Virus record (IMG/VR): IMGVR_UViG_3300033156_000215
Span: 6,723 to 70,722 of that record
Strand: one strand, 5' to 3'
Source of the DNA: a virus
Length of the DNA stretch: 64,000 nt
Numbering within the stretch: the stretch's first letter is position 1; every line of letters starts with the position of its first letter. A model generated the notes under the pieces. The model had not been told where the DNA came from. It was given only the letters and a program-made list of their open reading frames with translations, and did not search any database. A program made the position numbers and the translations under genes. This document shows, piece after piece, positions 4,562 to 64,000 of the stretch.

Positions 4562-4567
4562 TTTCTC

Positions 4568-48267: not shown

Positions 48268-48296
48268 TTGACAACGGCACCGCTATATGGTATAAT
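48268..48296 (+). promoter_or_regulatory. Consensus sigma70 promoter driving the right arm
   Basis: TTGACA-17-TATAAT with extended -10 TG. Confidence 0.9.
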
Positions 48297-48364: not shown

Positions 48365-48415
48365 TAAAGGCCAGGTCAGGGAAACTTTTGTTTCTTTTGG
48401 CCTGGCTTTTGTTTT
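48365..48415 (+). terminator. Terminator-like hairpin in the 5' leader
   Basis: GCCAGGTCAGGGAAAC-TTTT-GTTTCTTTTGGCCTGGC followed by TTTTGTTTT, before the first RBS. Confidence 0.55.
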
Positions 48416-48433
48416 AACTAAAAGGAGAGAAAA

Positions 48434-48817: not shown

Positions 48818-48843
48818 TTAGATAAAATAAACTTAGGCTATTC

Positions 48844-48900
48844 TAGGTTTACTGCGGCAACTAAAATGAAGGTTGCCGTGGTAAGCCTATTCCCTTTTTT
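48844..48900 (+). terminator. 19-bp stem-loop (terminator or RNase III-type processing site)
   Basis: TAGGTTTACTGCGGCAACT pairs with GGTTGCCGTGGTAAGCCTA (with G-U pairs), then TTCCCTTTTTT. Confidence 0.6.
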
Positions 48901-48956
48901 ATGAGGGAAATAAAGATAGCAAAAAACCAAACCAAACCAATTTAAGGAGTAAAGAG

Positions 48957-49997
48957 ATGAGACCGAAGGACGTGAAAAACCTGCTGAAGAGTCTTTATCC
49001 AGACGGGCCGTGTGTTTTCTTAATCGGGGCATCGGGTGTTGGTAAGTCAGAAATTGTGAAACAAGTAGCTGATGAACTAGGTGTAGGATTTTGTGTTCTT
49101 GACATGATTCTCCAAGACGAGGTAGTGATGCATGGTATTCCAGATCTTAACCAAGATTGGTTAGAATGGAAACCATCAAAGGAGATTCCTTTCGAAGGAA
49201 ATGATGCGTTCCCTGAAAATGGTATTTTGTTCCTCGACGAGTTTAATTGTGCTCGTAGAGGATTACAAACTCTCGGCTACCAGCTTGCACTTGAAAGAAG
49301 AATAGGCAGCCATCGTCTGAAGAAAGGTTGGTATCCTGTTTTTGCAGGGAATAGGGTACAGGATCAAGGAGAAATTTTTGATGTTCCTGGCCCCCTGAAG
49401 AACAGGGTTCTTAAAGTTGACTTCACGGTCAACTTGCAAGACTGGCTGCAATATGCGATTAGCCACGATGTATCCGATGAGATTATTGGATACATCATGT
49501 GGTCAGCTCAGGGCATCGAAGAAGGTGTTGATGTCTTGGGCAATCTTATCAATCTGGAGTTGGCTGATAAAGATTGGAATTGGCCAACTCCGAGAGCTTG
49601 GGCAAGAAATGTTGATTTCTTGCTCAAGAAAGGTATTCGTAGTTTGGAGGCAATTGCTGGCTGCATTGGACAAGTTGCAGCCAGTGAATTTCTAGGTTAC
49701 TTAGAAGTTGTTTCTAAGTTACCTAAAGTTGAGGATTTCTTGGCAGGTAAGGCTGAATTCCCAGCCGAACCACATCTGCAATATGCTCTGATTGCTAGCA
49801 TGATTAAATATGCTAGTAATCAAGAACGTATTGACAAGGTTCTTTTGCGTGTCACTCAAGGTGATATCCCTGAAGAGTATGCTGCTATGTTAATTCAGCA
49901 GATATGTTCTACGCATACTGCTGAATTCTTCGCCTCGCCTTACCAGATGGATGCTCTGGCTAAGGCGGGAGAAATCTTCATCGAGGAGGAAGACTAG
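48957..49997 (+). CDS. MoxR-like AAA+ ATPase
   Basis: GASGVGKS, GILFLDEFN, AGN, L.NR, PTPRAW. Confidence 0.92.
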   Translation: MRPKDVKNLLKSLYPDGPCVFLIGASGVGKSEIVKQVADELGVGFCVLDMILQDEVVMHGIPDLNQDWLEWKPSKEIPFEGNDAFPENGILFLDEFNCARRGLQTLGYQLALERRIGSHRLKKGWYPVFAGNRVQDQGEIFDVPGPLKNRVLKVDFTVNLQDWLQYAISHDVSDEIIGYIMWSAQGIEEGVDVLGNLINLELADKDWNWPTPRAWARNVDFLLKKGIRSLEAIAGCIGQVAASEFLGYLEVVSKLPKVEDFLAGKAEFPAEPHLQYALIASMIKYASNQERIDKVLLRVTQGDIPEEYAAMLIQQICSTHTAEFFASPYQMDALAKAGEIFIEEED

Positions 49998-49998
49998 G

Positions 49999-51177
49999 AT
50001 GGACGAACAAAAGCTTTTTCGTAAGTTTCGCTCAGTAAGAGCGGAACTTATGTTGGAGAATCAGATGTTTGGGGCCGTAGTTATGCAGCTACGGCCCCAA
50101 CTAGAACTAACCGATGAAGAATTTGTAGCATCGGTTAGTGGGGATGGAAAGTTGTCGTTAGGCAAGAGATTCTTTGAGTTTACAAAAGAGGAACAAAAAG
50201 GAATCCTTGCCCATGAAGTTCTTCATGTTGCTCTTTCTCACCTTGATAGGATGGGAAAAAGCAATATGGAGTTGTGGAACATTGCAGCGGATCTTGTAGT
50301 TAATGATTTGCTGTTGAGTTCCAATTTCCAACTCCCAAAAGAAGGACTTTTTGATAGAGATTTATCAAGAAGTCCTGAAGGGAAGTTATTAAGCGTAGAA
50401 AAAGTTTACAAGACCTTGACTGATAAAGTAAAACAGTTTCAGCAAGGTCAAGGTAACAGTAATCAACAGCAAAATTCTGATGGTTCATCTGGTGATGGTT
50501 TTGACCAGATGAGTCAAAAAAGGTTCGATAAGCATATCCCTGGAAAAGGGGAATCTTCCTCTTTTTCAGAAACAATCAAGAGGATTGTATCGGGCTTTTC
50601 TAGTATGCCTGGCACAATGCCAGGTGAAATGCAAGAGTATCTGAAGGAAAGTCTTGCGCCAAAGCTAGATTGGCGTGAGCTTCTCCGACGTTATCTTCAG
50701 AAAGTAACTGAGGATAACGTAAACTGGAGAAAGAGAAAAGAGTTCCTTAGAAACTTTGGTTATTTCCCGACACTAGAAACAGAGGATAAAGTAAATGTTA
50801 TCTTCTGTATAGACGTATCGGGAAGCATATCTCCAGAGGATTTACAGAAGTTCTATTCTGAAATCCTCGGAGTTATCAGAGCTGTACAATTGTCCAAAGT
50901 TACAGTTGTACAGTTTGATACTGAAATAACAAACGTAGAAGAAATTAGTTCTAGTTCTTCCCTGCAAGAAATAAAAATTGTAGGGAGAGGTGGAACTGAC
51001 TTTGCTTGTCTGGAAAATATTTCAGACAAGATTAGCAAGAAAGCGGACGTGGTTATTCTCATGTCCGATTTCTACGCTAATAGTCTTGATACTTACATCG
51101 CTGACGAAATGATCTATTTAGTAGTAGATAATGATGATTTCGATAGCGGTGTGTACAAGACAATACATTTAGATTAA
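49999..51177 (+). CDS. HExxH metallopeptidase-like plus vWA domain protein (DUF2201-like)
   Basis: LAHEVLH...H..R, WNIAADLVVN, LDWRELL, IDVSGSI (MIDAS), GRGGTDF, SD. Confidence 0.92.
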   Translation: MDEQKLFRKFRSVRAELMLENQMFGAVVMQLRPQLELTDEEFVASVSGDGKLSLGKRFFEFTKEEQKGILAHEVLHVALSHLDRMGKSNMELWNIAADLVVNDLLLSSNFQLPKEGLFDRDLSRSPEGKLLSVEKVYKTLTDKVKQFQQGQGNSNQQQNSDGSSGDGFDQMSQKRFDKHIPGKGESSSFSETIKRIVSGFSSMPGTMPGEMQEYLKESLAPKLDWRELLRRYLQKVTEDNVNWRKRKEFLRNFGYFPTLETEDKVNVIFCIDVSGSISPEDLQKFYSEILGVIRAVQLSKVTVVQFDTEITNVEEISSSSSLQEIKIVGRGGTDFACLENISDKISKKADVVILMSDFYANSLDTYIADEMIYLVVDNDDFDSGVYKTIHLD

Positions 51178-52012
51178 TCTGAAGGAAGGTGATACATGTC
51201 GATTGAACCAATCTTGACGGTGAAGAACAAGAGAATAATCATTATCCATCCAAAAGAGTCGCTGAGAGTAGACATATTAGAAGAATTCCAAGATAAAGCT
51301 GCTTCTTATCTTGGTAAACTTAGAGAATGCACTGCTATTAAGGTACCTTACTTGTCTGACTTGTCAGATGTTGTTCTCGTAGATGATAGTATTGCCTATT
51401 TCGAAAAAGTAGGTAATACTATCGTAGATAAGCAAGGAAACATAGCAGGCTTGCTCGTTAATCAAACTCGTGAAGTAGTTTCTACTATAGACAATGACGA
51501 TGCAGCCGATCAGCTGTTTGACATTGTTTACGAGTTTAAGTATACATTACGTAATATTGATAATGCTCCAAAAGATATGAAGTTGGAGCAAGTATTGGGA
51601 TGTACAAAGACGAATCCTGTCGTACAGACTAATTTAGGTCTGTACGTAAATTACATGCTGTTTGACAATTCTCTGAAGAACTTGATTCTTTCTCCTTTTT
51701 TCAAGAAGCTCGATTTCTACCTTTTCCCTGTATTTGCATTAGGAAAAGAAGTAGAAATTTCTGAAGAGGAAGATGCCCTCTTTAATTGCAACAAAGTGAT
51801 GTTCAAAGAAATTCACACTTTGTTGCAAGCTTTGGAAGAGAAAAGAGAGGTAATAGTCAAAGTTTACAACAAAGCAGGAGTTTTAATAAACAGAGAATTA
51901 ATCTATACAAGGATAAGACCCAGTAGGGTTATTCATCCTACTTTTCTCTCTAGCTTTGGCCCTACATGGGTTCACTATCTAATTAGATGAACAAGACGAT
52001 ACATTTAGATTA
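51155..52012 (+). repeat. 22-bp direct repeat flanking the first array gene
   Basis: ACAAGACAATACATTTAGATTA 51155-51176 and ACAAGACGATACATTTAGATTA 51991-52012. Confidence 0.8.
51196..51990 (+). CDS. Paralog array member 1 (subgroup A)
   Basis: L.DL.D.VL.D...EKVGN.I, T..GLY.N..F, LSP.F.K..FYLFPVFALG, LIYT.I.P. Confidence 0.85.
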   Translation: MSIEPILTVKNKRIIIIHPKESLRVDILEEFQDKAASYLGKLRECTAIKVPYLSDLSDVVLVDDSIAYFEKVGNTIVDKQGNIAGLLVNQTREVVSTIDNDDAADQLFDIVYEFKYTLRNIDNAPKDMKLEQVLGCTKTNPVVQTNLGLYVNYMLFDNSLKNLILSPFFKKLDFYLFPVFALGKEVEISEEEDALFNCNKVMFKEIHTLLQALEEKREVIVKVYNKAGVLINRELIYTRIRPSRVIHPTFLSSFGPTWVHYLIR

Positions 52013-52022
52013 GGAGGAAACA

Positions 52023-52823
52023 ATGAGAGATCTGGTAATTCAGAACGGACGTATTCTTGTTAAAGGTAAAAATAACTATATAGATCTCTTCGAATCCTAT
52101 GGGGAGCATGCTTGGCAAAAGTTAAGACTTGTAAAGCATACTTCTGGAGAAAGTTTGCCAAGGCTTAATGATATCAAAGATCTGGTATTGGTAGACTACG
52201 ATGACGTCTTCTACGAAAAAGTAGGAAACAAGATAATGAATAAGTACGGTGAAACTGTAGGCATTATTCAGGATAACCGTGCTTTTGTTTTTCTCTTTGA
52301 CAGACCAGAGGAAAGGCATATTTCAGATGCATTAGCTTTCTTCAAAGTTGATGCAATCACTATAGGAGTAACGAAAAAGGTACATCCTATAGAAATAGTG
52401 GGAATGCAGAAAGATCTAAGCAGGCCGATAATAAGGACAGACTACGGCTTGTATATAAATAAAATGTTCTTTGATGAAAAGTGGGAGAGTACTCTATGCT
52501 CTCCCATTTTCCAGAGGTTTGAATTTTATCTCTTTCCTGTAATTGCTTTAGGTGAAGAGGTTGATATCTCTGACAATGAGGAACGACTTTTTTATAACGC
52601 TAGGTTGAGATTGAGCGTGCTGGAATCCTTGATTAAAGCTTTTGAAAATGGAAAAGAAGTTATTGGTAGGTTGCACTGGAAGAGCTATGATCCTTTAGTT
52701 CTTGATGAGCATTATCGAAAACTGATTTACACGAAAATAAAACCTAGGCTTGAAGTCGAAGTTCTTTACGAAGGTATTGTGTCTACGTGGTATTTAGAAT
52801 ACTATATAAAAGATGAATTCTAG
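52023..52823 (+). CDS. Paralog array member 2 (subgroup A)
   Basis: Same motifs as member 1. Confidence 0.85.
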   Translation: MRDLVIQNGRILVKGKNNYIDLFESYGEHAWQKLRLVKHTSGESLPRLNDIKDLVLVDYDDVFYEKVGNKIMNKYGETVGIIQDNRAFVFLFDRPEERHISDALAFFKVDAITIGVTKKVHPIEIVGMQKDLSRPIIRTDYGLYINKMFFDEKWESTLCSPIFQRFEFYLFPVIALGEEVDISDNEERLFYNARLRLSVLESLIKAFENGKEVIGRLHWKSYDPLVLDEHYRKLIYTKIKPRLEVEVLYEGIVSTWYLEYYIKDEF

Positions 52824-52917
52824 TCAAATTGGCCCCGCTCCTTTGCTTTATCTAATCAAAGAGTATAAGTTGTCTAATAAGACAGCAGAAAAAGACGAGA
52901 AGGAGACAGATTAAACA

Positions 52918-53697
52918 ATGGCTATGTGGGAAGTAATAAACGAAAGGTTGTATGTCAAGGATCCAGAAACTGGACACAAGTCTGATGAAGCTAAAAAAGA
53001 TAAGCCTTTCGACGATCTCAATTTCTGGCTTCCTGTCTACGGATATGAGAAAATAACTTATGATTCCCTGCCAGAAAAGGTTGTCCTGTTAGATCGTGAT
53101 GGACAGTTCTTTAAGAAAAACGGAGAGTATATTGAGAATCGAGAAGGAAAGAAGATTGCTTGTCGTATCGGTGATTTACATTTTAGCTTTCTAACTGATG
53201 ATTGGGACGAAATAAGGTTAGGCTCAATCCTAAGAAGATTGAAGGGCTTGCTATATAACATCAGAAATGCACCTGAAGATCTTGAGATTTATAGACTAGT
53301 TGGAAAAGAACGGTCGTACAAATTAATAGAGACCAACAAGGGAATCTTTGTAAACCGTTATCTCGTTGATTCTGAACATCTAAAGTTGCTACAGTCTCCG
53401 ATATTAGATAAGGTTGAGTTTTTTGAATTTCCTTTGTTTGTTAGCACAAGCGAAGGAAAGGTTTTCGAAGATCCACCAAAAGAATTGCAGCAATCTCATA
53501 ACTTTATCAAGACAGTTTATGAATTTATAGACGCTTTAGAAAGTGGTCACAAGGTATATGTTTATTTAGGCTCAAGAAAGAAAAAACCTTTGGTATTGCG
53601 AAGGATAACATATACTGGAATAAAGTTGAACGGAACGATACCTGATATGTCGAAAAAAGTTATTGATCCTGTATATTTCGTTTATCTTATTGAGTAG
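52918..53697 (+). CDS. Paralog array member 3 (subgroup A)
   Basis: LP..V.L.D..G.F.K.G..I, T.KGIF.N, SPIL.K..F..FP, YTGIK. Confidence 0.85.
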   Translation: MAMWEVINERLYVKDPETGHKSDEAKKDKPFDDLNFWLPVYGYEKITYDSLPEKVVLLDRDGQFFKKNGEYIENREGKKIACRIGDLHFSFLTDDWDEIRLGSILRRLKGLLYNIRNAPEDLEIYRLVGKERSYKLIETNKGIFVNRYLVDSEHLKLLQSPILDKVEFFEFPLFVSTSEGKVFEDPPKELQQSHNFIKTVYEFIDALESGHKVYVYLGSRKKKPLVLRRITYTGIKLNGTIPDMSKKVIDPVYFVYLIE

Positions 53698-53717
53698 TAA
53701 AGAAGGGGAATATCCGA

Positions 53718-54521
53718 ATGAACAATTCAAGATATTTTGTGGAGGATGGAAGACTTAAAAGCGTAAATCCCTGGGACGGAAAGATTGTAGATGTGCTGAG
53801 ACATAGTAACAGAAAACCTTACATATATTTCGCATCCGTCTCAAACAGAACAGGCGAAGATCCACCTTACTTTTTCGATTTACCTGACTTTGTTATCTAT
53901 GAAGACGGAGTCAGAATTTTTAAGAAGATGGGAAACAATATTGTAGATAGGAAAGAGAATGTGATAGCACTAGGCGATCGTGATCTAGGCGCTGCCTATT
54001 GCATAGTAGAAACTAAAATCGGAACCACAATCCTCGACGATACTTTGTCTGCACTTGGAGTTGATCTTAATTGCTTGTACTCAGTAGAGAAAATAAAGCT
54101 GGAGAAGATTTTGGGTTACTATGGAAGATACTTTCCAATACTCCAGACAGATCATGGGATTTTTGCAGATCAATTGTTCTTCGACAACTCTCTAAAAGAG
54201 ATAATCTGTTCTCCAATGCTGAACAAGACAGACTTTGTGATTTTCCCTGTCTTTGCTTTAGGAAAAGAGTATTCGTTAACAAAAGAAGAAGAAAAGAAGC
54301 TTACTTGTCAGAGAGTGACAGGTAAATTTATTTACAGTCTAATTGAGTTTTGTAAGCAGAACGATTCAAAGATTTTGGTACAAAGATGGAATACCTTGCA
54401 GATGGACTGTATATATCGAGAATTGGTTTTTACTGGAATTGAACCAAAAGCTGAGTTACTCGATGCAGTCTTCAGTTCGTCTCCGAACGGCTATATTACT
54501 TTTGTAGTCGTAGACAGATAA
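53718..54521 (+). CDS. Paralog array member 4 (subgroup A)
   Basis: DLPD.V..D..F.K.GN.I.D, T..GIF...FD, SP.L.K..F.IFPVFALG, FTGIEP. Confidence 0.85.
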   Translation: MNNSRYFVEDGRLKSVNPWDGKIVDVLRHSNRKPYIYFASVSNRTGEDPPYFFDLPDFVIYEDGVRIFKKMGNNIVDRKENVIALGDRDLGAAYCIVETKIGTTILDDTLSALGVDLNCLYSVEKIKLEKILGYYGRYFPILQTDHGIFADQLFFDNSLKEIICSPMLNKTDFVIFPVFALGKEYSLTKEEEKKLTCQRVTGKFIYSLIEFCKQNDSKILVQRWNTLQMDCIYRELVFTGIEPKAELLDAVFSSSPNGYITFVVVDR

Positions 54522-54533
54522 TTAGGAGTAACG

Positions 54534-55625
54534 ATGAGATCAATACCATCTAGCGATAACAAGATGTATACGCTGCGTAGCTCAATGCTAGATATTATGG
54601 AACGAAAAGGAAACAGAATAAATCTAACTACGGTCATGCTTAACTATGGAAAAGTTGATAGCTATGGAAGAGTACTTTTCCCAGTCTTCAGCATAGATGT
54701 TGCTGAAGTAACTGAAGAAGAGAACAGAAGAATAATAACCTTTCTATCAGAACTATCTCCAGATATCCAGTCAGAACTATATGATTTCTTACGTATAGGA
54801 TTTTTTGAAGAAGTAAGGTATGGTTTAGAAATAGGAAATGTAAACCACGCAGCCTTGAAATCTAAATATAAGCCATTGCCAGATATAAGCTCTGTTGCAG
54901 ATAGTCATTTATTGCTGATTCTCAACGCTTGCCGTATAGAAAACAAAAACTTAGAAAAGATGGTTTTTGAGGAAAAACCTTTTACTGGAATAAATAAAAA
55001 TATATTAGTTTTGAGAGATGTCTTAGTAGGCATAATCTCAAAAGAAAGGTGTGTTTTCGATAATCACGCTACTCTTATCTACGATAAGATATGCGCTTGT
55101 CCTTTTATCTGGCATCTGACAGATTATTGTTCGAGCATTAGAGTTACACCCTTTCCTTATGAGATTCATGAAATAACATATGATAAGCCTCCTTCGATTT
55201 TGGATAAAGCGTATCTTACTTTTGATACAGCTGTACATTACGTTGACTCGGATTCAGACTTTGCTATAGATTTTGGTGATGTTGTCTTCACATCGAACTT
55301 CAGTTATTCAGGCAACGAGAGAAAGAAACTTGCCAATCCAGTGTTTATAAATTTACTAGCAAACCAAAAAACGTTTCTAGGGCCTTCGTTCATTCTGAAA
55401 GAGACGGATAAGAGTGCAAAAGAATTTAGTTGGAAAAGTGCAGACATTAGAAATTATAAATCTGGAATCAAGGCAGGTATAAATTATGCCTTGGCTGAGA
55501 AAGATGGAAAGATGTATTATTTTTCTGGAGGTGTAGTATATGAAATAATTCCGACTGGAGTTCAACCAAACAAAATAGAATTCAAGTTCGCAGAAGATTG
55601 TTATTACGTTATAGAGTGTGGCTAA
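54534..55625 (+). CDS. Paralog array member 5 (subgroup B)
   Basis: KPFTG, LANPVF..LL..Q.TFLGPSF.LK, YEIIPTGV. Confidence 0.85.
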   Translation: MRSIPSSDNKMYTLRSSMLDIMERKGNRINLTTVMLNYGKVDSYGRVLFPVFSIDVAEVTEEENRRIITFLSELSPDIQSELYDFLRIGFFEEVRYGLEIGNVNHAALKSKYKPLPDISSVADSHLLLILNACRIENKNLEKMVFEEKPFTGINKNILVLRDVLVGIISKERCVFDNHATLIYDKICACPFIWHLTDYCSSIRVTPFPYEIHEITYDKPPSILDKAYLTFDTAVHYVDSDSDFAIDFGDVVFTSNFSYSGNERKKLANPVFINLLANQKTFLGPSFILKETDKSAKEFSWKSADIRNYKSGIKAGINYALAEKDGKMYYFSGGVVYEIIPTGVQPNKIEFKFAEDCYYVIECG

Positions 55626-55648
55626 GAATAAAGATAAGAGGATAAAAC

Positions 55649-56731
55649 ATGGAGCTAATGCAACGAAACGGAAAACATCATTACTTGACCGATTCTTACT
55701 ACATGATTTACTTTACTGAAGGAAATCTGGTCAAAAGAATATCTTATGATTTGACGGAACCACACATGGACAATGAAGGTTTTATGCGGTTTCCTGCCGA
55801 AAGTCGTGTACTGGCTAAAACAAGCAGAGTAAATTATGGAAGAAAGATTCTAATGCCTCCGTGTAATTACGGAGATAAAGCAACGCAAAGACATTTAGCT
55901 CAAGTACTGAAATTATCTCCGTATGAATCGTTTGTACGGACTGAAAAATACGAGGATCTTTTTACACGTGAAGTAAGCAACGAAAAACTGAATCTAAAGA
56001 ATTTGAGTCTAGAAAAAACAGCCAAGGTATTAGTATCTATACGCTTGGATCGTATTACAGATCAGAAAAGGACTATTGTCTGCAAGAAGCCTTTTACTGG
56101 CGTTTACAATAACGTACTTATGATTGCTGATAAAATAATTGGAATTCTATATGGTAATTCTTTCTTTCTAGCTTATGGCATTTATCCGAAAGTAAAACTA
56201 GCAACAGAAGACGATCTATATCGTAGTTTTGTAAAAAGTGGGTACTACTGCAAAAAGATAATGCTGGCTGAATCGTTGATGGAGAACTATGAAAAGAGAA
56301 AACCGGTTCTAATAAACAAAAATTACTTAGGTACACGTATATACGGTAAGTCTCACTATAATCTTGATTACATGATTGAACTTAGTGACAAGATATACAC
56401 AGCTTTATTTAGCTATCCGAAATACGTAAAAGAAAGATTCAGCAATCCTTTGTTTGCCAAGCTACTTCAGAAACAAAAAGTTTTCCTTGGGCCTTCCTTT
56501 GTTCTCAAAGAAGTAGATCGGCCTTCAAAATTAAAATGGAAATATATAAAGCTTATAACGTTTGGATACGAATCCGCTATTTATGAAAGGTGTGGATCCC
56601 TAGCTAGAGATGGAGAAAAACTTTATTATGATAATGATACGGGTACTTATGAAGTGATAGCGACTGGAATAGAACCAAGGATATTTAAGATTCACGAAAA
56701 TGATTTTTGTTTTAGAGTCTATACTGGGTAA
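55649..56731 (+). CDS. Paralog array member 6 (subgroup B)
   Basis: KPFTG, SNPLFAKLL..Q..FLGPSF.LK, YEVIATGI. Confidence 0.85.
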   Translation: MELMQRNGKHHYLTDSYYMIYFTEGNLVKRISYDLTEPHMDNEGFMRFPAESRVLAKTSRVNYGRKILMPPCNYGDKATQRHLAQVLKLSPYESFVRTEKYEDLFTREVSNEKLNLKNLSLEKTAKVLVSIRLDRITDQKRTIVCKKPFTGVYNNVLMIADKIIGILYGNSFFLAYGIYPKVKLATEDDLYRSFVKSGYYCKKIMLAESLMENYEKRKPVLINKNYLGTRIYGKSHYNLDYMIELSDKIYTALFSYPKYVKERFSNPLFAKLLQKQKVFLGPSFVLKEVDRPSKLKWKYIKLITFGYESAIYERCGSLARDGEKLYYDNDTGTYEVIATGIEPRIFKIHENDFCFRVYTG

Positions 56732-56776
56732 GTCAGATCAAAACGTTAAGAATTTTAGAGTTGGAGAATAGTTAGG

Positions 56777-57883
56777 GTGGCAAGAATCGAAGTCATAACC
56801 GAGAACAAGAATATTTACAGATTGTATAACGAGAAGGTGGAGAAATATGAACTGAAAGAAGATGGAATATTCAGGACTAAATATTTTCTGGACGATGTCT
56901 TGGTTGACAAAGGTAAAGTTTATGTCAAAGCTGAGATGCAGAAAGTAATAGAACAAAGTTCTGAATGTATTACGGTAGAAAGCAGTCTACCTAAAACAGT
57001 TGCTGAGAAATGCTTAGGTACTTATTATCCAGAATATATTTGTTCTGGAGCTGATTTATTAGTAGTCAGATACGCAGTAGAAGGAACAAACAGGATAGAA
57101 CAAAAGAAATTTGCAAAAGTTGAGGATTATGTCGAACCTAGCATAATAACAGAGTTGTGTTTTGATCTAGCTACCAAGTCTGTTATACATATTCTAGAGA
57201 ATAGTCCGTTTAGAACAGGGCTGAACGAACTAATAATAAACGAAGATCCGTTTACTGGAGTGAAGGGTAATTCTGGAATAATACACGGAACAAGGATATT
57301 TTATAGTGATTCCAAGTATATTATGCTAGATCCCTTTATACCCAAAATGTATTATATGTCCGAAGCTACCTTCAGTAATCTAATGTCTATGGCATATTGC
57401 ACAAACAGAAGAGTAGTATATTGTTTGGGTTCTGTAACTTCATTTCCTACTCAAGAGCCTTTAAAGAACTTATCTGACTTTTTTATGGAGTTGGATTACA
57501 CAAATTTGGATGGTACTCGTGGTGATTATCTAGTAGAATACAAAGGTAAACTCTATACTAAATTCTTTAGTTATAGTATTGACTGTAAGCGTAAACTATT
57601 AAATCCTTTGTTTCAGAAATTGCTGGAGAACCAGCAGCTGTTCTTTGGCCCTTCATTCTATCTAAAGAAACTAAATTTGGATTATGACTTTGAGTTTGTA
57701 AAAGTAGTAAGATTGATAGGGCCAAGACTAAGCACAACTTTCCTCGGAAATATCGTAGATAATAAAGTATTCGTCATCGGAAAGAAAGATAACGAACTTT
57801 ATCAAGTAATCTCTACTGGAGTAAAACCTCTCGGATTTGATCTAGTCAGCTCACCAAACGAGCTGAAAATAATAACAAAATAA
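56777..57883 (+). CDS. Paralog array member 7 (subgroup B)
   Basis: DPFTG, LLNPLFQKLL..Q..FFGPSF.LK, YQVISTGV. Confidence 0.85.
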   Translation: MARIEVITENKNIYRLYNEKVEKYELKEDGIFRTKYFLDDVLVDKGKVYVKAEMQKVIEQSSECITVESSLPKTVAEKCLGTYYPEYICSGADLLVVRYAVEGTNRIEQKKFAKVEDYVEPSIITELCFDLATKSVIHILENSPFRTGLNELIINEDPFTGVKGNSGIIHGTRIFYSDSKYIMLDPFIPKMYYMSEATFSNLMSMAYCTNRRVVYCLGSVTSFPTQEPLKNLSDFFMELDYTNLDGTRGDYLVEYKGKLYTKFFSYSIDCKRKLLNPLFQKLLENQQLFFGPSFYLKKLNLDYDFEFVKVVRLIGPRLSTTFLGNIVDNKVFVIGKKDNELYQVISTGVKPLGFDLVSSPNELKIITK

Positions 57884-57894
57884 GGAGAAACAAG

Positions 57895-59037
57895 ATGGAA
57901 GAATACTATCACGAGTATCTAGGTAATGTTCCTGGTCTGTGTGTTGTTTACACAGAAGACAGACAAGTTGGGAATAACTTTGTGACTGACGTGTACTTAA
58001 GCATCCATGATTTTCGTGATGCAATCATTGACGGAAACTGGATTCAGTTCAAAAACATCTTCTACTTGTTCGCAATTGATCACGAAGGTTACCTGGAGCT
58101 AAACTTGCAAAAGAACGAATATGTAGAAGATCCAGTAGCCTTTGCAAATGTTCTTCTTCCTCAGTACATGGAAAAACCGATGATATATGGTTTTAAAGAT
58201 GAGCCTGAAGAATCTTACGTTCCTCTTCCAGATACTCACGCAGAGGAATTCTTTGAATACGGAGAAGAGCAGTATTTACCGAACATAATTGATCTGAGAC
58301 AGTTGGATGATCTGTCTTTGACTGACTATATAGGTTGGTACGAGAAAAAACTGTATTACTTTGATACTGTCACAGCAGCAGTAGTAGGAAGAAATATTCT
58401 CATCTTCGACGTAGGTACCTACCAAGAAGATTGCATGATATCCGCTTTAATATATCATGCTGCGTCTTGCCTCGATTTAGGAACAGTACATTTCTACTTC
58501 CAGAAATGCCCCACTGATGTTGAAGTAATCGCTCCTGAATATCTGGATACGTCTACCTTGCCTTTAGATAGCAAGACGGCAAGTGATTATTACTTCGCTC
58601 CTGAGTGTCTCTTTAAGCTAGACGACGTGTATGCTACACGCTATCTGTATTTCGATTATGAAGAAGGTAAAAAACTGGAAAACAAGCTGCTACCGAAAAT
58701 GCTGAAAGATAATCTTACCTTCCTCGGCCCTATCTACATCATGAAACCTACGGATCTTTTTACTGAAGAAGACATGGACTTGTCAATAGAGATAAGATTC
58801 GAAGGGTTCTTCTCGTTTTCTGGTGACCGTACTAGACAACCAGATATTTATATGGGCAAAGAAGTAGATGGCAAGCTGTATATTCTTGCTCCAGATTATT
58901 ACTACCAAGGAAACCATTACCTTCTGCCAGTAAGAGTTTACGAGTTGATTCCAACTGGAATCAAGGCAAACAATGTTCAGATGAAGAGAAGTAAGGATGA
59001 GATCGTATTTTATCTTACATGCCCAAGAAGTTACTAA
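57895..59037 (+). CDS. Paralog array member 8 (subgroup C)
   Basis: VE.IAPEYL..T.PLD, YATRYL, TFLGPIY..KP, LIPTGIKA. Confidence 0.85.
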   Translation: MEEYYHEYLGNVPGLCVVYTEDRQVGNNFVTDVYLSIHDFRDAIIDGNWIQFKNIFYLFAIDHEGYLELNLQKNEYVEDPVAFANVLLPQYMEKPMIYGFKDEPEESYVPLPDTHAEEFFEYGEEQYLPNIIDLRQLDDLSLTDYIGWYEKKLYYFDTVTAAVVGRNILIFDVGTYQEDCMISALIYHAASCLDLGTVHFYFQKCPTDVEVIAPEYLDTSTLPLDSKTASDYYFAPECLFKLDDVYATRYLYFDYEEGKKLENKLLPKMLKDNLTFLGPIYIMKPTDLFTEEDMDLSIEIRFEGFFSFSGDRTRQPDIYMGKEVDGKLYILAPDYYYQGNHYLLPVRVYELIPTGIKANNVQMKRSKDEIVFYLTCPRSY

Positions 59038-59053
59038 AACAAAGGAGAGATCA

Positions 59054-60193
59054 GTGCCTATAACAAAACTGATAAGAACGATCAATGGAGAATACTTACT
59101 GGTTCTTGATTGGGTAGAGGAGAGAGGTGGAGATATTGTTACTTATTACATGAAAGCCTACGATCTCAACATGCATAAAATTGAGAACAATAAATTATTG
59201 TTCCGATCTTTTCGCTACAAGTTTGCAGTAGAAACAGACAGAAGAGTATATGTGAATACTTTCTGTCCTGGCTTTCTTGCTTCGTTACACGTCAACACAG
59301 AACTAGAATCTGAACTTTTCTATGGAAAGACAAGAGAATACAAAGAATTGGAGAGGGTGAACGAAAGCTACACTTTATTGCCGTTCATGAAAGAAATAGC
59401 CAACGGCGACTACCATACTGGATATGCGGTTATTGGCGCTTTAATAAAGCACGACAAGATTAACAACCTATCAGATTTAAGAGTAGCTGAGAATTCGTAT
59501 TGGAAAAACTTTGTCTATTATGTAGATGGCTATGCCCGTTTAGCCATAGCCAACAACCACATCTTAACTTTTGGGTATATTGAGTTTTCCAGGACAGATC
59601 AAGCTGTCTTTGCTTACAGATTATCAAATATGTTTTACCTTGGCATGGATAATTATTACTATGCCATAGGATTGCCTAAGAGTGTAGAAATAATTGCTCC
59701 TGAGTATCTGAATAGTTACACAATGCCATTGGATGTTTTTAGTGCTGGAAGGTTAGGCTGTTTTGATTGCTTGATGAAGATAAATGGAACTTACGCTACT
59801 AGGTACTTAACGTATACAGAAGAAGAAGCAAAGAAACTTAAGAATAGGTTGTTTATAAAGGCTGTTGAAAATGAGATGACTTTTCTTGGCCCTATATATT
59901 TAGCAAAACCAAGACCAGACATGGACACTTCAGACTTTGATCTAAACGTAAAAATTTCTATTGAGGATATAGATACATCTTTCCATTGGGCTAATGGAGT
60001 AAAAGGGAAAATGGAAGATGGGAAACTCTATATCCACACTTTCAATCCTAAATACGGAGGATATACGTACTATGATGTAGTTCACCAGTTGATACCTACT
60101 GGAGTAAAGGCAGACAATCTGGAAATTAGGAAGGATGGAAACGAAGTAACCTTTCGTCTCAATAACAATATTCCAAGGAGTAGAATACAATGA
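59054..60193 (+). CDS. Paralog array member 9 (subgroup C)
   Basis: Likely GTG start at 59054 after AAGGAG; VEIIAPEYL..TMPLD, YATRYL, TFLGPIY, LIPTGVKA. Confidence 0.85.
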   Translation: MPITKLIRTINGEYLLVLDWVEERGGDIVTYYMKAYDLNMHKIENNKLLFRSFRYKFAVETDRRVYVNTFCPGFLASLHVNTELESELFYGKTREYKELERVNESYTLLPFMKEIANGDYHTGYAVIGALIKHDKINNLSDLRVAENSYWKNFVYYVDGYARLAIANNHILTFGYIEFSRTDQAVFAYRLSNMFYLGMDNYYYAIGLPKSVEIIAPEYLNSYTMPLDVFSAGRLGCFDCLMKINGTYATRYLTYTEEEAKKLKNRLFIKAVENEMTFLGPIYLAKPRPDMDTSDFDLNVKISIEDIDTSFHWANGVKGKMEDGKLYIHTFNPKYGGYTYYDVVHQLIPTGVKADNLEIRKDGNEVTFRLNNNIPRSRIQ

Positions 60194-62025
60194 TAGAGTG
60201 TGAAGCTAGTACTGGATACAGATATCCTTATTTCTACCACGTGTATAAACTCTATCCGCATGAACTAGAGAATTTTGATCCTGAAAAAGAAGAAGGTTTA
60301 ACTGAAGCATGGTACATGGATGTTTTCGATCTAGAAACGGCTGAGTTTGAAGATGGCTTTCTTGTAGCAGAACATCGATGGACTAGATTTTGTAATGTCT
60401 ATTATGACCAAGAGATTATTATTCGTTCCAATTTGCCAGAAGACATTAAAGGTACCATCTTGCCTGATATAGAACAAAAGATATTTTTAGGTGAGGATTT
60501 GCTTATCTACGAAGATGAGATAAACGAGCCTATAACTAAAGAGAAACAAGTGCTGTCAAAAACAAGGCCAGGTAAATTAGCATCAGCAGCAATTACTGAA
60601 GCCCTTAAAACAGCTCTTGCAAAACTTGATGGAATAACTTTTCAAGATTTGCTGGAAAAATATCCCAGGCTTGTTTTAGGAGAAGATTTCTATATCAAGG
60701 ACAGAAAGATATATGCTGACAGAGTGCAGATAGGCTGGATAGGGAAGAAATACTTATTCCACTATCATTATGGCACTTACGTGCACGAAGAACTAACTGA
60801 ATACATAGCTAGTCTATTAAATCTACAATTCTACTCAGGGTTAGTGTCAGCACAAGACTATCCTGAGGTAGATGCAATTTCAGAAACATATCTAGGCATA
60901 AGACTAATCAATGTTGATAAGCATACAAGCAAACATACTCCTGTCTTTTCTGACGCTTTAATTAAATCTGGAGATTTATGGTACAACGAGTATTTAACTT
61001 TTACGGATGATCAAATTGAGAAATTGTCTAACCCTATCTTAGCCAAGTCATTCAAGAATCTTACAACTTTCCTTGGCCCATGTTTTGTTCTTGTTCCTGC
61101 CGAACCAACCGCATTCTGTGATCTATTTAACTCAAGCCTGGTATTTAAATCCGATCCGAACGATAAAACTTATGAAGAATATCCAATGTTTGTTGATGAT
61201 GTCAATGAAGCTGTTTACATTAAGATTAATGAATTTGGTTACAAGCTGGTTAGTACAGGTATCTATCCGCATAACCTAGAATTTCGTATGGATGGAGATA
61301 ACGTTATTTTAACTCAGCATTCTAAAAAGACGTATCCAGATCTATATCCGATTATCATAGAGGACAATATAGTCAAACGGGTAGATACTTGTTCTGGTAA
61401 AGCTACAGTGGAGGGAATATTCGTTGGAGATGAATTAATAACTATCGGTGATAATGATGACTGGATCAGAACCTTAAGTTGTCTTTTCAACAAACGTCTT
61501 AGTTCTCTTGACCTATTCGTAGGAAACAACGAGTATAAAGGAAAAATAAGAGAGCTTGATTCTGATTATAGAAAAAAGATAAAAACGGTTTTTTCTTTCT
61601 ACTGGCCTAGGAAAAAGTATAGCAAAGGAGAGATTTTGTTAGAAGGAGAGGATAAGATCTATACACACTATCTGGTAATTAGTAAGAAATATAAAGAACA
61701 GCTTACTAACCCGATATTTAAGAAACTGGCTGAAGACAATATATTTTTTATTGGGCCTAAGTTTATCTTGAAAGAAAGTAAAGATTTTCAAGTTCTAGAG
61801 AAAGAAAATGAAGCAAAGAGGTTGCAAGTCAAAATCATAAATGTTGGACACGGTTTCAGTACTATGAGAGGATATAGGCTGAAAGAGAAGTTGTTTGTCC
61901 GACTAACTGATGCAATTACTGGCGAATTCAAATATGCAGAACTTGTAGATACTGGAATAGAAGCAGAAAATCTGAAAATAACCGAAACTGAAGATCGTAT
62001 TACTTTCTATTTGTACAGATACTAA
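60190..62025 (+). CDS. Paralog array member 10 (double module, 611 aa)
   Basis: Two copies of the module: LSNPILAK...TFLGPCF...STGIYP and LTNPIFKK...FIGPKF...DTGIEA. Confidence 0.85.
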   Translation: MIECEASTGYRYPYFYHVYKLYPHELENFDPEKEEGLTEAWYMDVFDLETAEFEDGFLVAEHRWTRFCNVYYDQEIIIRSNLPEDIKGTILPDIEQKIFLGEDLLIYEDEINEPITKEKQVLSKTRPGKLASAAITEALKTALAKLDGITFQDLLEKYPRLVLGEDFYIKDRKIYADRVQIGWIGKKYLFHYHYGTYVHEELTEYIASLLNLQFYSGLVSAQDYPEVDAISETYLGIRLINVDKHTSKHTPVFSDALIKSGDLWYNEYLTFTDDQIEKLSNPILAKSFKNLTTFLGPCFVLVPAEPTAFCDLFNSSLVFKSDPNDKTYEEYPMFVDDVNEAVYIKINEFGYKLVSTGIYPHNLEFRMDGDNVILTQHSKKTYPDLYPIIIEDNIVKRVDTCSGKATVEGIFVGDELITIGDNDDWIRTLSCLFNKRLSSLDLFVGNNEYKGKIRELDSDYRKKIKTVFSFYWPRKKYSKGEILLEGEDKIYTHYLVISKKYKEQLTNPIFKKLAEDNIFFIGPKFILKESKDFQVLEKENEAKRLQVKIINVGHGFSTMRGYRLKEKLFVRLTDAITGEFKYAELVDTGIEAENLKITETEDRITFYLYRY

Positions 62026-62047
62026 TAACAAACAAAGGAGAGATAAA

Positions 62048-63028
62048 ATGGCAAAAGTAACACTCAAGAAAATCAAGAGTAATAACGTGAATTTCCTTGG
62101 CCCTTGGTTTGAATTGGTACCAGAAAATACTTCGTACGAAAGGATTGACTACTATTCCAAGCTTGTTCTTATCAATGATAAAACAAAAGAATACGTTTCG
62201 TTTCCAGCAGCTAGAGACGAGTTTGGTTATTTTATGCACCTCTTAGTTGATGGAGCACCCTACCAATTGAAAAGTACTGGAATTTATCCAGATAAAACTG
62301 AGCTTTACGTTGATGGCAATTTCTACTTGATAAAGTTTGATCCTGAAGTTCCCAAAGATGGAATTAGAACTATTATCGAGGGAAATGCTGTTAGGGAATA
62401 TTGGGATCACGGAACGAAAGCCAGATTGGTCGGCTTGTTTTCTGAGGATATTTGCTTTGACTTTGATGATGAATATGAAGAATTTGAAGAGGCTGTAGAA
62501 ATATTTGGGAAAGACCCAGAATCATATTTTGACTACGTTGGGTTAGAGAATAGCTATGGTCAAGCTATGGAACTGGAACCTAAATACAGAAAGAATGTAA
62601 GAACAGTTGTTCTAAATAACGGTTTAACTAGAAATACCTTTGTACCAGATATGCTCATTCGTGATGGAAATAAAATCTGCTCCAGATACCTAGTTTTTGA
62701 TCGCAAGTACGAAGAAAGACTAACCAATCCGGTATTTGTGAAAACACTTGAAACTCAAGGATGTTTCCTTGGCCCTAAGTTTATTTTAGGAGAACGTAAA
62801 GAAGAAGTAGATGGTGAGTCATGTCGTATTGTTGTAGAAAACAGCAGAACAGCAATTAATGGTAACGGAAAGAAAGTAGGAAATAAACTTTACATACGCA
62901 TGACTGATCCTATGAACTTTAAGATATCTGGAGAATATATAGAAGTTATTGATACTGGAATAGAAGCTGATAACTTAGAAATAAAGGATGAAGAGCTAGT
63001 CATAAGATTCAAAATAAGAAAGGGTTAG
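62048..63028 (+). CDS. Paralog array member 11 (subgroup D)
   Basis: Starts mid-module at NFLGPWF...STGIYP; second module LTNPVF.K...CFLGPKF...DTGIEA. Confidence 0.85.
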   Translation: MAKVTLKKIKSNNVNFLGPWFELVPENTSYERIDYYSKLVLINDKTKEYVSFPAARDEFGYFMHLLVDGAPYQLKSTGIYPDKTELYVDGNFYLIKFDPEVPKDGIRTIIEGNAVREYWDHGTKARLVGLFSEDICFDFDDEYEEFEEAVEIFGKDPESYFDYVGLENSYGQAMELEPKYRKNVRTVVLNNGLTRNTFVPDMLIRDGNKICSRYLVFDRKYEERLTNPVFVKTLETQGCFLGPKFILGERKEEVDGESCRIVVENSRTAINGNGKKVGNKLYIRMTDPMNFKISGEYIEVIDTGIEADNLEIKDEELVIRFKIRKG

Positions 63029-63038
63029 GAGAAACAAA

Positions 63039-64000
63039 ATGAGAAAAAGGTTTATCGGATATAAGAGAGTAAGAAAAGATAAGATAAATGTACTAGGGCC
63101 TATATTCAAACTTATTCCAACTGACATCGAACGAGAGAAAGCTGAATATTACTCAAAGCTTATCTTGGTTAACAAGGTGACAAGACAGTATGCAGAGATT
63201 CCTGCTATCGGATTTCACTATCCAGCAGAGTTACACTTAAATATCAACAACAAGAACTACATACTAGCTAGTTCTGAATTTTATCCTGAGAATGTTGAAA
63301 TTAAGTTTGAGAAGTATGTTTATCTAATCAAGCATAAAAAGGATTATGTCTGTGAACCAGGAGCTTATTTCATTGATGGTAAAGCTGTTAGACTTGTAAG
63401 AGGCTCATCTAGGAAAATCATTTTAGCTGGTATTTTTGCTGACGATACTTTAGTTAAATTGGGTAATCATTATCTAGGTTTCAATGGTATCTGTGCTGTA
63501 TTCAGGAAAAACTATGAATTGTATGGAGACTATGTTGGTCTAGAATCAAGCACAGGTGATGTAGAAGAATTACAACCGATATATAGAACTGAAGTAAGAA
63601 CAGCTAGACTTAGTAATAACCTAGTTGCCCTGCCTTCAGTACCAGATATCTTAATTCAAGATAGTAACAAGATTTGTTCTCGTTATTTGGTTTTTGATAT
63701 GAAATACAAAAATAAATTAGCTAGTCCATTATTTGCAAAGATGCTAGCTGATAGAGGATGTTTTCTTGGCCCAAGCTTTGTCTTAGGTGAACGTAAGGAT
63801 AACTTAGATGGAAAAGATTGTGTAGTACGGATCATGGGTGATGGCTTTGGTACTAAAGCAACTGAAGTCAACGACAAACTTTACGTAAGAATGCGCGATC
63901 CTTTTGAGCCTGAATGCATAAAGTATATCGAGATAATCAGTACTGGAATCAAGGCTGAGAACTTAAAGATTATTAAGCACGGCAGGTACGTAAATTTTGG
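63039..64000 (+). CDS. Paralog array member 12 (subgroup D), runs off the right edge
   Basis: Not in the ORF track. Manual translation from ATG 63039 (RBS AGGAG): NVLGPIF, YYSKLILVN, DYVGLE, KICSRYLVFD, LASPLFAK...CFLGPSFVLGERK, STGIKAENL; closest to member 11. Confidence 0.85.
   Translation, partial: MRKRFIGYKRVRKDKINVLGPIFKLIPTDIEREKAEYYSKLILVNKVTRQYAEIPAIGFHYPAELHLNINNKNYILASSEFYPENVEIKFEKYVYLIKHKKDYVCEPGAYFIDGKAVRLVRGSSRKIILAGIFADDTLVKLGNHYLGFNGICAVFRKNYELYGDYVGLESSTGDVEELQPIYRTEVRTARLSNNLVALPSVPDILIQDSNKICSRYLVFDMKYKNKLASPLFAKMLADRGCFLGPSFVLGERKDNLDGKDCVVRIMGDGFGTKATEVNDKLYVRMRDPFEPECIKYIEIISTGIKAENLKIIKHGRYVNF

What the first reader, a model, noticed from the sequence alone, without database searches (positions are those of the whole stretch)
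48957..64000. MoxR/vWA-metallopeptidase pair heading a tandem array of at least 12 diverged paralogs of an unrecognised family
Seen: downstream of a perfect sigma70 promoter lie a MoxR AAA+ ATPase, an HExxH/vWA protein and at least 12 consecutive genes (about 12.8 kb, continuing past the edge). They share a C-terminal module, L-x-[NS]P-x-F-x-K-x(5-7)-F-[LIF]-G-P-x-F-x-L ... [IV]-x-T-G-[IV] (FxxFP in members 1-4), while their N-termini differ. Subgroups A (1-4), B (5-7), C (8-9) and D (10-12) are contiguous, as expected from serial tandem duplication. I saw no catalytic motifs, signal peptides or TM helices. Known: MoxR plus vWA pairs act as ATP-driven remodelling machines, with the vWA protein as adaptor. 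Inference: an early-expressed system in which one AAA/vWA engine works with a diversified repertoire of clients or adaptors (constant docking module, variable target-binding part), for example for host takeover or anti-defence. Using about a fifth of this window on one family is very unusual for a siphovirus.
Basis: partly seen in the sequence, partly recalled or inferred. Interest (0 to 1): 0.88.

Follow-up and report, generated by a model that had tools for sequence, protein, structure and literature searches.

The report
Orphan 14-gene paralog array in phage
An uncultured marine phage spends about a fifth of its genome on fourteen neighbouring sister genes that share a protein module found nowhere else, placed right after a common phage ATPase/protease-adaptor gene pair; what they do is still unknown.

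Summary
The window is bases 6723-70722 of a 70,722-bp IMG/VR phage record with a 114-bp terminal repeat. The array runs through that repeat and has 14 members: 14.9 kb, 21% of the genome. m5-m14 share a ~125-aa C-terminal module beyond doubt. m1-m4 are linked to it more weakly (hhalign 73%, E 3e-5). N-terminal parts of different subgroups show no detectable homology.

The family has no Pfam match (14 of 14 members), no PHROG match (11 of 14 tested), and no relatives among 1.84 billion protein representatives except this phage's own copies. A confident AlphaFold model (pLDDT 92) matches no solved fold.

The upstream pair is the known N4 gp24/gp25-type MoxR ATPase plus metallopeptidase-vWA cassette. 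It occurs in 744 phage records without this array. The "perfect promoter" lies 660 bp upstream, behind another ORF and a strong terminator-like hairpin.

Functional coupling to the pair is untested. My enrichment test for paralog arrays beside such pairs was not significant (4/59 vs 1/80 loci, p 0.16).

Earlier reports of this scan describe unrelated paralog arrays beside the same pair in other genomes.

Best reading: a lineage-specific accessory host-interaction repertoire, mechanism unknown.

The parts
48268..48296 (+). Consensus sigma-70-type promoter-like site (12 of 12 hexamer matches, 17-nt spacer, TG before -10), 660 bp upstream of the ATPase gene
48434..48817 (+). 127-aa ORFan between the promoter and the hairpin
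   Evidence: no Pfam or PHROG match
48844..48889 (+). Terminator-like hairpin (19-bp stem, then a T-run) directly upstream of the ATPase gene
   Evidence: dG -30.2 kcal/mol, z -5.72, 0 of 200 shuffles fold as well
48957..49997 (+). MoxR-like AAA+ ATPase, N4 gp24 type (346 aa)
49951..51177 (+). Zincin metallopeptidase (HEVLH) fused to a vWA domain (DVSGS MIDAS), N4 gp25 type; likely true start at 49999
51152..51176 (+). Last 25 nt of the vWA gene; repeated 23/25 at 51988-52012, just after m1 (duplication scar)
   Evidence: family D15
51196..51990 (+). m1, subgroup A (264 aa)
52023..52823 (+). m2, subgroup A (266 aa)
52918..53697 (+). m3, subgroup A (259 aa)
53718..54521 (+). m4, subgroup A (267 aa)
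54534..55625 (+). m5, subgroup B (363 aa); module at residues 237-362
55649..56731 (+). m6, subgroup B (360 aa); another assembly holds a variant with an in-frame 28-aa deletion
56777..57883 (+). m7, subgroup B (368 aa, GTG start)
57895..59037 (+). m8, subgroup C (380 aa, pI 4.4)
59054..60193 (+). m9, subgroup C (379 aa from GTG 59054, which has an SD; the ORF opens at 58997)
60190..62025 (+). m10, subgroup D (611 aa): own N-terminal part plus two modules (254-373 and 477-610)
62048..63028 (+). m11, subgroup D (326 aa): truncated first module, middle part, full second module
63039..64000 (+). m12, subgroup D (325 aa); runs off the window and ends in the 114-bp terminal repeat. m13 (record 151-1131) and m14 (record 1094-2251) follow outside the window

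Best explanation
Shown: this is a real, lineage-restricted family of 14 tandemly duplicated soluble proteins. Each combines a conserved C-terminal module of about 125 aa with one of at least five mutually unrelated N-terminal parts. The module is beta-rich and apparently non-enzymatic. The genes are packed head to tail on the same strand behind an N4 gp24/gp25-type MoxR ATPase / metallopeptidase-vWA pair. They lie in a 22-kb arm that otherwise holds only ORFans, and they evolve under purifying selection.

Inferred: the array is an accessory host-interaction repertoire, used for host takeover or counter-defence. It was built by repeated segmental amplification, followed by divergence and replacement of the N-terminal part. 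The constant module would bind one common partner or self-assemble. The variable part would engage different targets. The common partner could be the neighbouring vWA/MoxR machine, but nothing tested here requires that.
For: Real genes.
- All frames are intact and every start has an SD.
- Of the 32 shown differences from a related marine strain that fall in array members, 24 are synonymous and 8 non-synonymous.
- Copies occur on four other short contigs.

Family and module. Invariant module residues are F43, G45 and T106 only, so no catalytic set is conserved. The module model has pLDDT 92 and pTM 0.83.

Variable N-terminal parts. Serial duplication: plus the 23/25 scar.

Soluble: pI 4.4-9.4 and no TM segment.

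Accessory character.
- No Pfam, PHROG or PADLOC family.
- No relatives in 1.84e9 representatives beyond this phage's own copies.
- None in the 5.8e9-protein index.
- GC is 35.6% against 40.8% for the rest of the genome.

Segmental amplification of counter-defence genes is documented in T4 and T6 (PMC9391042, PMC13096335; search listing and abstract starts only).
Against: - There is no functional evidence of any kind: no homolog of known function, no fold match, and no RNA data.
- Only one lineage carries the family, so comparative tests are impossible.
- The members are large (259-611 aa), unlike most known small anti-defence proteins.
- The link of m1-m4 to the module rests on a 73% hhalign probability. 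In the m1 model, a helix (203-214) sits where the module has strands.
- The hairpin upstream argues against simple early expression.
- The join across the record's ends rests on a 114-bp repeat that lies inside a module. CheckV rates the record 64% complete.
Confidence: 0.4

Rival explanations
1. First reader's model. The 14 proteins are interchangeable adaptors or clients of the adjacent machine. The constant C-terminal module docks on the vWA domain (MIDAS) or the MoxR ring. The variable N-terminal part selects host targets, which are then remodelled or cut by the zincin peptidase.
For: - Only 18 nt separate the vWA stop from the m1 start. The genes share a strand, and no terminator-like site was found between the pair and m1.
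- The last 25 nt of the vWA gene recur 23/25 after m1, so the array was already next to the vWA gene when it duplicated.
- The MIDAS (DVSGS) and HExxH motifs are intact.
- Earlier reports of this scan describe unrelated paralog arrays beside the same pair in other genomes. These are leads, not evidence.
- My sample shows a trend in the same direction: loci with clusters of >=4 paralogs, 3/59 against 0/80.
Against: - The pair occurs in 744 phage records. It has no such array in LUZ7 or S-TIM54, and the family is absent from 59 other loci carrying the pair.
- The enrichment of paralog arrays is not significant (p 0.16 for >=3 members, 0.07 for >=4), and the loci were not dereplicated.
- The module has no invariant acidic residue of the kind a MIDAS ligand would supply.
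- No complex prediction could be run.
Confidence: 0.2
2. Virion-related proteins. The members are packaged or ejected internal proteins, decoration proteins or assembly factors. They would be matured by the MoxR/vWA-peptidase acting as an assembly chaperone and processing enzyme.
For: - Iyer et al. 2021 propose a virion-assembly and processing role for the MoxR + metallopeptidase-vWA pair of jumbo phages. They cite a MoxR-vWA system needed for tail assembly in the Acidianus two-tailed virus (PMC7824862, passage read).
- In roseophage RPP1, four virion proteins are encoded near the gp24/25 homologs, forming a 'second structural module' (PMC4193335, passage read).
- In S-TIM54 the pair is flanked by annotated virion proteins and Hsp20.
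Against: - The array lies on the opposite strand from, and far from, the capsid, portal, terminase and tail genes.
- No member matches any structural PHROG.
- The members show no repeats or fibre-like features.
- Fourteen diverged copies with unrelated N-terminal parts are hard to fit into a fixed virion architecture.
Confidence: 0.15
3. Independent accessory proteins with no shared partner. The module is only a stable folding or oligomerisation scaffold inherited by duplication. Adjacency to the pair is an accident of where variable genes accumulate.
For: - The whole + strand arm apart from the pair consists of ORFans.
- Tandem ORFan paralog arrays are described as common in variable regions of phage genomes in an earlier report of this scan (e1-3438590; unchecked).
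- The conserved module residues are mostly hydrophobic or structural.
Against: The module has been retained through very long divergence: tree branches of 0.3-3 changes per site. It is duplicated within single proteins, giving two modules in m10-m13. Both points suggest it has a function of its own.
Confidence: 0.2
4. Artefact or decaying DNA: an assembly error across repeats, or non-functional duplicates.
For: The record's 114-bp terminal repeat lies inside a module, and CheckV completeness is 64%. One ENA protein (P0011) is a chimera that contains a module fragment.
Against: - Fourteen intact frames of 259-611 codons, each with an SD.
- A 24:8 excess of synonymous changes.
- Paralogs are only 19-49% identical, too diverged to mislead an assembler.
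- An independent marine run holds related contigs in 29 of 30 bins.
Confidence: 0.03

Closest known systems
N4 gp24/gp25-type phage cassette: MoxR-like AAA+ ATPase plus metallopeptidase-vWA protein (PHROG 1297 and 1314; Pfam DUF2201_N + DUF2201). Described for jumbo phages by Iyer et al. 2021 (PMC7824862). Listed as function-unknown core genes of N4-like phages (PMC2784036, PMC4193335).
   Same: The two upstream genes are members. The ATPase is homologous over its full length to LUZ7 gp24-like. The vWA protein hits Pfam above cut-off. 744 phage records hold the gp25 type. The ATPase has a homolog in 46 of 59 IMG/VR loci that carry the vWA gene.
   Different: Nothing unusual in the pair itself. 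What differs is what follows it: here a 14.9-kb ORFan paralog array; in LUZ7 a helicase and DNA polymerase; in S-TIM54 a virion protein.
Tandem arrays of lineage-specific paralogs beside the phage MoxR/vWA-peptidase pair, as described in earlier reports of this scan (e1-3411659, e1-5867671, e1-3442465, e1-249926)
   Same: Same cassette, same-strand tight packing, and ORFan paralogs restricted to one phage group.
   Different: Those arrays have 4-10 small proteins (about 65-150 aa) of other families. Here there are 14 proteins of 259-611 aa with a shared module and swapped N-terminal parts. In my own sample the association was not significant.
Segmental amplification ('accordion') of counter-defence genes in T4 and T6 (PMC9391042; PMC13096335; search listing and abstract starts only)
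   Same: Tandem duplication of accessory genes in a phage, as a route to new host-interaction capacity.
   Different: Those are recent, near-identical copies seen in experiments. Here the copies are anciently diverged (19-49% identity) and no defence target is known.
Poxvirus ankyrin-repeat/PRANC (F-box-like) multigene families (recalled from general knowledge, not from any call)
   Same: A working analogy only: many paralogs, a variable N-terminal target-binding part, and a constant C-terminal module that docks on one machine.
   Different: No sequence or fold relation was tested or implied. The docking partner here is unknown, and the host is a bacterium.

Membership tests
MoxR-like AAA+ ATPase, phage N4 gp24 type (PHROG 1297) | Significant full-length match to the family profile or to a named member | tested here: met
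   PHROG 1297 at E 4.8e-62 over residues 1-341. 26% identity over 345 aa to the LUZ7 'N4 gp24-like protein', E 4e-22.
MoxR-like AAA+ ATPase, phage N4 gp24 type (PHROG 1297) | Pfam AAA_5 / bpMoxR domain above the curated cut-off | tested here: inconclusive
   AAA_5 scores 17.8 bits against a cut-off of 22; bpMoxR scores 12.4 against 27. Walker A (GASGVGKS) and Walker B (LFLDEF) can be read in the translation. No PDB sequence match.
Metallopeptidase-vWA protein, N4 gp25 type (Pfam PF13203 DUF2201_N + PF09967 DUF2201; PHROG 1314) | Both Pfam domains above gathering score, in N-to-C order | tested here: met
   PF13203 scores 111.7 bits (cut-off 23.2) at residues 30-261. PF09967 scores 64.3 bits (cut-off 26.4) at residues 283-399. 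PHROG 1314 at E 3.9e-74.
Metallopeptidase-vWA protein, N4 gp25 type (Pfam PF13203 DUF2201_N + PF09967 DUF2201; PHROG 1314) | HExxH zinc motif and DxSxS MIDAS motif intact | tested here: met
   H88, E89, H92 and D288, S290, G291, S292 are invariant in the alignment with the LUZ7 and S-TIM54 proteins.
Any described protein family for the 14 array members (Pfam, PHROGs, PADLOC, PDB sequences) | A profile match at or near the family threshold | tested here: not met
   Pfam: 14 of 14 members have no match; the best sub-threshold E is 0.047. PHROGs: 11 of 14 tested, none matched; m4, m9 and m14 were not tested. PADLOC: 6 members tested, none matched. PDB profile search: best E 0.96.
Any solved or predicted viral fold for the shared module | A structural match that covers most of the domain and stands above background | tested here: inconclusive
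One family comprising all 14 members (shared C-terminal module) | Significant homology of every member to the module profile | tested here: met
   m5-m14 are beyond doubt. m1, m2 and m4 score 1e-5 to 1.6e-4 against the module HMM; m3 scores 0.017 but joins through m1, m2 and m4. hhalign: 73%, E 3e-5. The link of subgroup A is therefore probable, not certain. The m1 model shares the bbb-aa-bb start but differs after it.
Functional MoxR/vWA client or adaptor set | Co-occurrence of the family with the pair across lineages, or a physical interaction | not testable with these tools
   The family occurs in one lineage only. No multimer prediction tool was on hand.

The most novel reading that the evidence does not exclude
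The array is a programmable targeting repertoire for a phage-encoded AAA+/vWA-zincin machine. Each member would dock through its constant module, which has a previously unseen fold, onto the vWA-metallopeptidase/MoxR complex. Its unique N-terminal domain would deliver a different host protein (for example defence-system components) for ATP-driven remodelling or cleavage. That would be a bacterial-virus counterpart of the F-box/PRANC substrate-adaptor families of large eukaryotic viruses. It would also give a function to the widespread but uncharacterised N4 gp24/gp25 cassette.
Probability: 0.12. Interest if true: 0.9.

Novelty: new variant of a known kind. Interest (0 to 1): 0.58.

Why it matters
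Phage genomes are tightly packed, so spending 21% of a 70.6-kb genome on one diverged family implies strong and varied selection, most plausibly from the host. The family is unknown to every library searched, and its confident model matches no solved fold, so it is a clean target for structural work and for anti-defence or host-takeover screens.

The N4 gp24/gp25-type ATPase/vWA-peptidase pair is found in hundreds of phages and still has no known function. If the array proved to work with that pair, it would supply the first candidate partners for the cassette.

If the two prove unlinked, the array is still one of the larger ORFan paralog expansions in a mid-sized phage, and an example of domain swapping around a constant module.

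Tried and rejected
Relatives of the family. None was found beyond this phage's own copies.
- Profile search of 1.84e9 representatives: 11 hits.
  - I read P0004, P0006, P0009, P0010 and P0011.
  - P0007 and P0008 were confirmed as own proteins, and P0002.
  - P0003 and P0005 are assigned by length only.
  - P0010 is an unrelated repeat protein that matches only the last hairpin of the profile.
- Word-index searches with m11, with A2 and with A3: own proteins and variants only. The 'longer' and 'shorter' length options were not run.
- Metagenome scans with A6 and A3: none.
- Genome-contig scan with A6: none.
- IMG/VR scan with the single vWA protein: none.
- Megablast of the 15-kb stretch against phage records: no match.
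- ESM Atlas for m11 and m8: nothing usable, and the Atlas's own models are poor (pLDDT 0.39 and 0.31).

Other blanks.
- Rfam: no match in 46800-64000.
- No tRNA gene in the window.
- Expression: no RNA holder was listed for the stretch. This says nothing about expression.
- Habitat rests on one marine-metagenome run holding a small share (0.20) of the sampled words. I laid it.
- One bin (60041-60607) had no cover in that run.

Enrichment test. It used my own crude ORF caller and within-locus BLASTP at E <= 1e-4. The 59 and 80 loci were not dereplicated and have unequal lengths (938 kb against 1169 kb). All loci were kept. Small or fast-diverging paralogs below BLAST sensitivity would be missed.

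Paper supplements were closed and not consulted. They could hold gene-essentiality or proteome tables for N4 gp24/gp25.

Literature. I searched 'DUF2201 + phage', N4-like gp24/gp25 terms, MoxR/vWA/bacteriophage/paralogs, and tandem array/paralogous genes. None described this family or an array of this kind next to the pair.

Full report
WHERE THE WINDOW LIES. The window is bases 6723-70722 of a 70,722-bp IMG/VR virus record classed as having direct terminal repeats, with CheckV completeness 64%. The first and last 114 bases are identical. Treated as circular, the genome is 70,608 bp.
- It is a tailed phage. It has terminase, a capsid-protease fusion, a tape-measure-like protein and PolA, all on the minus strand.
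- One coded marine-metagenome run holds related contigs: 58 pieces, identity classes 8/23/20/7 at >=99, 95-99, 90-95 and <90%, with cover in 29 of 30 bins of 47000-64000.
- No tRNA gene was found in the window.

THE OBSERVATION. The array does not stop at the window's edge.
- m12 reads through the terminal repeat (325 aa).
- m13 (record 151-1131, 326 aa) and m14 (record 1094-2251, 385 aa) follow, making 14 members.
- Together they span 14,942 bp, 21.2% of the genome, at 35.6% GC against 40.8% for the rest.
- Every member has a Shine-Dalgarno sequence before its start.
- m9 most likely starts at GTG 59054, which is ATG in the related strain. The vWA gene most likely starts at 49999, directly after the ATPase stop.

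HOMOLOGY.
- BLASTP: m1-m4 form one group (6 of 6 pairs at E <= 7e-11). m5-m12 form another (26 of 28 pairs at E <= 1e-4, one at 3e-3, one without a hit). Links between the two groups are weak (best 7e-5 among 32 pairs).
- An HMM of the C-terminal 135 residues of m5-m14 finds m2, m4 and m1 at 1e-5 to 1.6e-4, and m3 at 0.017. It does not find the ATPase or the vWA protein.
- A profile-profile comparison of the module (A1) with m1-m4 (A2) gives probability 73%, E 3e-5, over 102 columns. The FLGPxF strand aligns with FxxFP, and TGI with T[GRK]I.
- In a six-frame scan of the whole record, only array frames reach E < 0.01.
- m10 carries two full modules. m11-m13 carry a truncated first module, a middle part and a full second module.
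- A maximum-likelihood tree of 18 module copies recovers A, B (m5-7), C (m8-9), the first modules of D and the second modules of D as groups that are also contiguous on the DNA. That is the pattern expected from serial tandem duplication. Branches are long, 0.3-3 changes per column.
- The last 25 nt of the vWA gene recur 23/25 just after m1. This confirms the duplication scar noted in e1-6180903.

THE VARIABLE PARTS. N-terminal parts are alignable only within subgroups. All 15 hhalign comparisons between A-N, B-N, C-N, m10-N, m14-N and the D middle part give probability <= 2.1%. So a constant C-terminus joined to unrelated N-termini is confirmed.
- The proteins are soluble: the highest 19-residue hydropathy mean is 1.53, and pI ranges from 4.4 to 9.4.
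- Invariant module residues are F43, G45 and T106; near-invariant ones are L28, P46 and G107. No catalytic-type set is conserved.

ARE THEY REAL GENES? The frames are intact and each has an SD. Of the 40 differences from the marine strain that were shown (out of 286), 32 fall in m1, m6, m8 or m9. Of these, 24 are synonymous and 8 are not, which indicates purifying selection. Variants exist in other assemblies:
- m6 with an in-frame 28-aa deletion, otherwise identical;
- an m3-like protein of 243 aa;
- a fragment of m14.
Each cluster has one or two members. They lie on the 70,722-bp record or on contigs of 3571, 4973, 2368 and 1877 bp.

IS THE FAMILY KNOWN? No.
- Pfam: 14 of 14 members without a match.
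- PHROGs: 11 of 14 tested, none matched.
- PADLOC: 6 tested, none matched.
- PDB sequences: none.
- The module profile finds 11 proteins among 1.84 billion representatives. Ten are this phage's own proteins or near-identical variants or fragments. One is an unrelated repeat protein that matches only the last hairpin.
- Word-index searches, two metagenome scans and one genome scan add nothing.
- The AlphaFold2 model of the module, built from 11 paralog sequences, is confident: pLDDT 92.0, pTM 0.83. It has three short strands, two helices, then seven strands.
- A missing match is not proof of a new fold, but none can be named.

THE PAIR. The ATPase is PHROG 1297. It is homologous along its whole length to the 'N4 gp24-like protein' of Pseudomonas phage LUZ7. 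The second protein carries DUF2201_N (zincin) and DUF2201 (vWA) above Pfam's cut-offs, with HExxH and DxSxS intact.
- tblastn finds the gp25 type in 744 phage records, 289 of them with >= 80% cover, all below 60% identity.
- In LUZ7 the pair is followed by helicase and DNA polymerase. In cyanophage S-TIM54 it sits between Hsp20 and a virion protein.
- N4 gp24 and gp25 are listed as function unknown (PMC2784036, table passage) and as middle transcripts (PMC4193335, passage).
- Iyer et al. describe the MoxR plus metallopeptidase-vWA pair in jumbo phages and propose a virion-assembly and processing role (PMC7824862, passage).
The pair is therefore already known, and it is independent of this array.

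IS THE ARRAY TIED TO THE PAIR?
- For: same strand, an 18-nt gap, no terminator-like site between them, and the duplication scar.
- The consensus promoter (48268-48296) is not at the head of the operon. A 127-aa ORFan and a strong hairpin with a U-run (48844-48889, dG -30.2 kcal/mol, z -5.7) lie between it and the ATPase gene.
- Earlier reports of this scan describe unrelated paralog arrays next to the same pair in four other genomes, so I tested the generalisation.
- I compared 59 IMG/VR loci holding a gp25-type gene with 80 control loci centred on PolA relatives.
- I used the same ORF caller and within-locus BLASTP for both sets.
- Loci with a paralog cluster of >= 3 members: 4/59 against 1/80 (p 0.16). 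With >= 4 members: 3/59 against 0/80 (p 0.07). With >= 2 members: 16/59 against 17/80 (p 0.43).
- This is a trend at most. The loci were not dereplicated, and the earlier reports are a selected sample.
- None of the 3360 ORFs in these 139 loci matches the module profile or the subgroup-A profile (best E 0.12).
- The ATPase has a homolog in 46 of the 59 vWA loci.

INTERPRETATION.
- Shown: a real, selected, lineage-restricted 14-member family with a constant, apparently non-enzymatic module and swapped N-terminal parts, placed directly behind a known cassette.
- Inferred: an accessory host-interaction repertoire built by amplification and divergence, in which the module binds a common partner or self-assembles.

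VERDICT. The pair is already known. The array is a new protein family, and an unusually large, modular variant of the ORFan paralog arrays seen in phage accessory regions. Interest 0.58.

Noticed in passing
outside the window: record G000 3501-5500 (L150:1300-3300): A segment of about 2 kb at ~50% GC, between the end of the array arm (34-36% GC) and the methyltransferase gene. It carries ORFans with no PHROG match. It may be a recent foreign insertion.
   Followed up: partly
window 51152-51176 and 51988-52012: The last 25 nt of the vWA gene recur 23/25 directly after m1, although m1 and m2 are only 30% identical as proteins. This is either a duplication scar kept by selection or a conserved element for translational coupling.
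   Followed up: partly
window 48844-48889: A very stable hairpin (19-bp stem, dG -30.2 kcal/mol) followed by a U-run, between a 127-aa ORFan and the ATPase gene. Transcripts from the consensus promoter would need read-through or antitermination to reach the operon.
   Followed up: partly
window 47680-48205: Repeated copies, in both orientations, of a motif of about 18-20 nt in the non-coding stretch upstream of the consensus promoter, seen while reading. They are possible operator sites.
   Followed up: no
window 55649-56731 (m6) and protein P0006: Another assembly encodes m6 with an in-frame deletion of residues 216-243, at the junction of the N-terminal part and the module. The protein is otherwise identical. 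This is either a population variant or an assembly artefact.
   Followed up: partly
protein P0010 (993 aa, ENA): A repeat protein with eight copies of a unit of about 120 aa matches only the last beta-hairpin of the module profile, in 8 stretches (E 1.3e-11). This is probably a summed short-motif resemblance, not homology.
   Followed up: no
protein P0011 (196 aa, ENA, 1877-bp contig): About 40 residues that closely match the start of the second module of m10 (one difference, by eye) are flanked by unrelated sequence. This is probably a chimeric assembly.
   Followed up: no
L054:8703-14317 (-) and L052:31-4554 (+): Two other IMG/VR contigs with a gp25-type gene carry paralog clusters nearby. 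L054 has four large tandem paralogs (331-604 aa) about 2 kb from the gene. L052 has two interleaved sets of 7 and 6 small ORFs about 4 kb away. Neither matches the family studied here.
   Followed up: partly
window 59054: The GTG at 59054 has a strong SD and is ATG in the related marine strain. It is therefore the likely true start of m9, rather than the ATG at 58997 that overlaps m8.
   Followed up: yes
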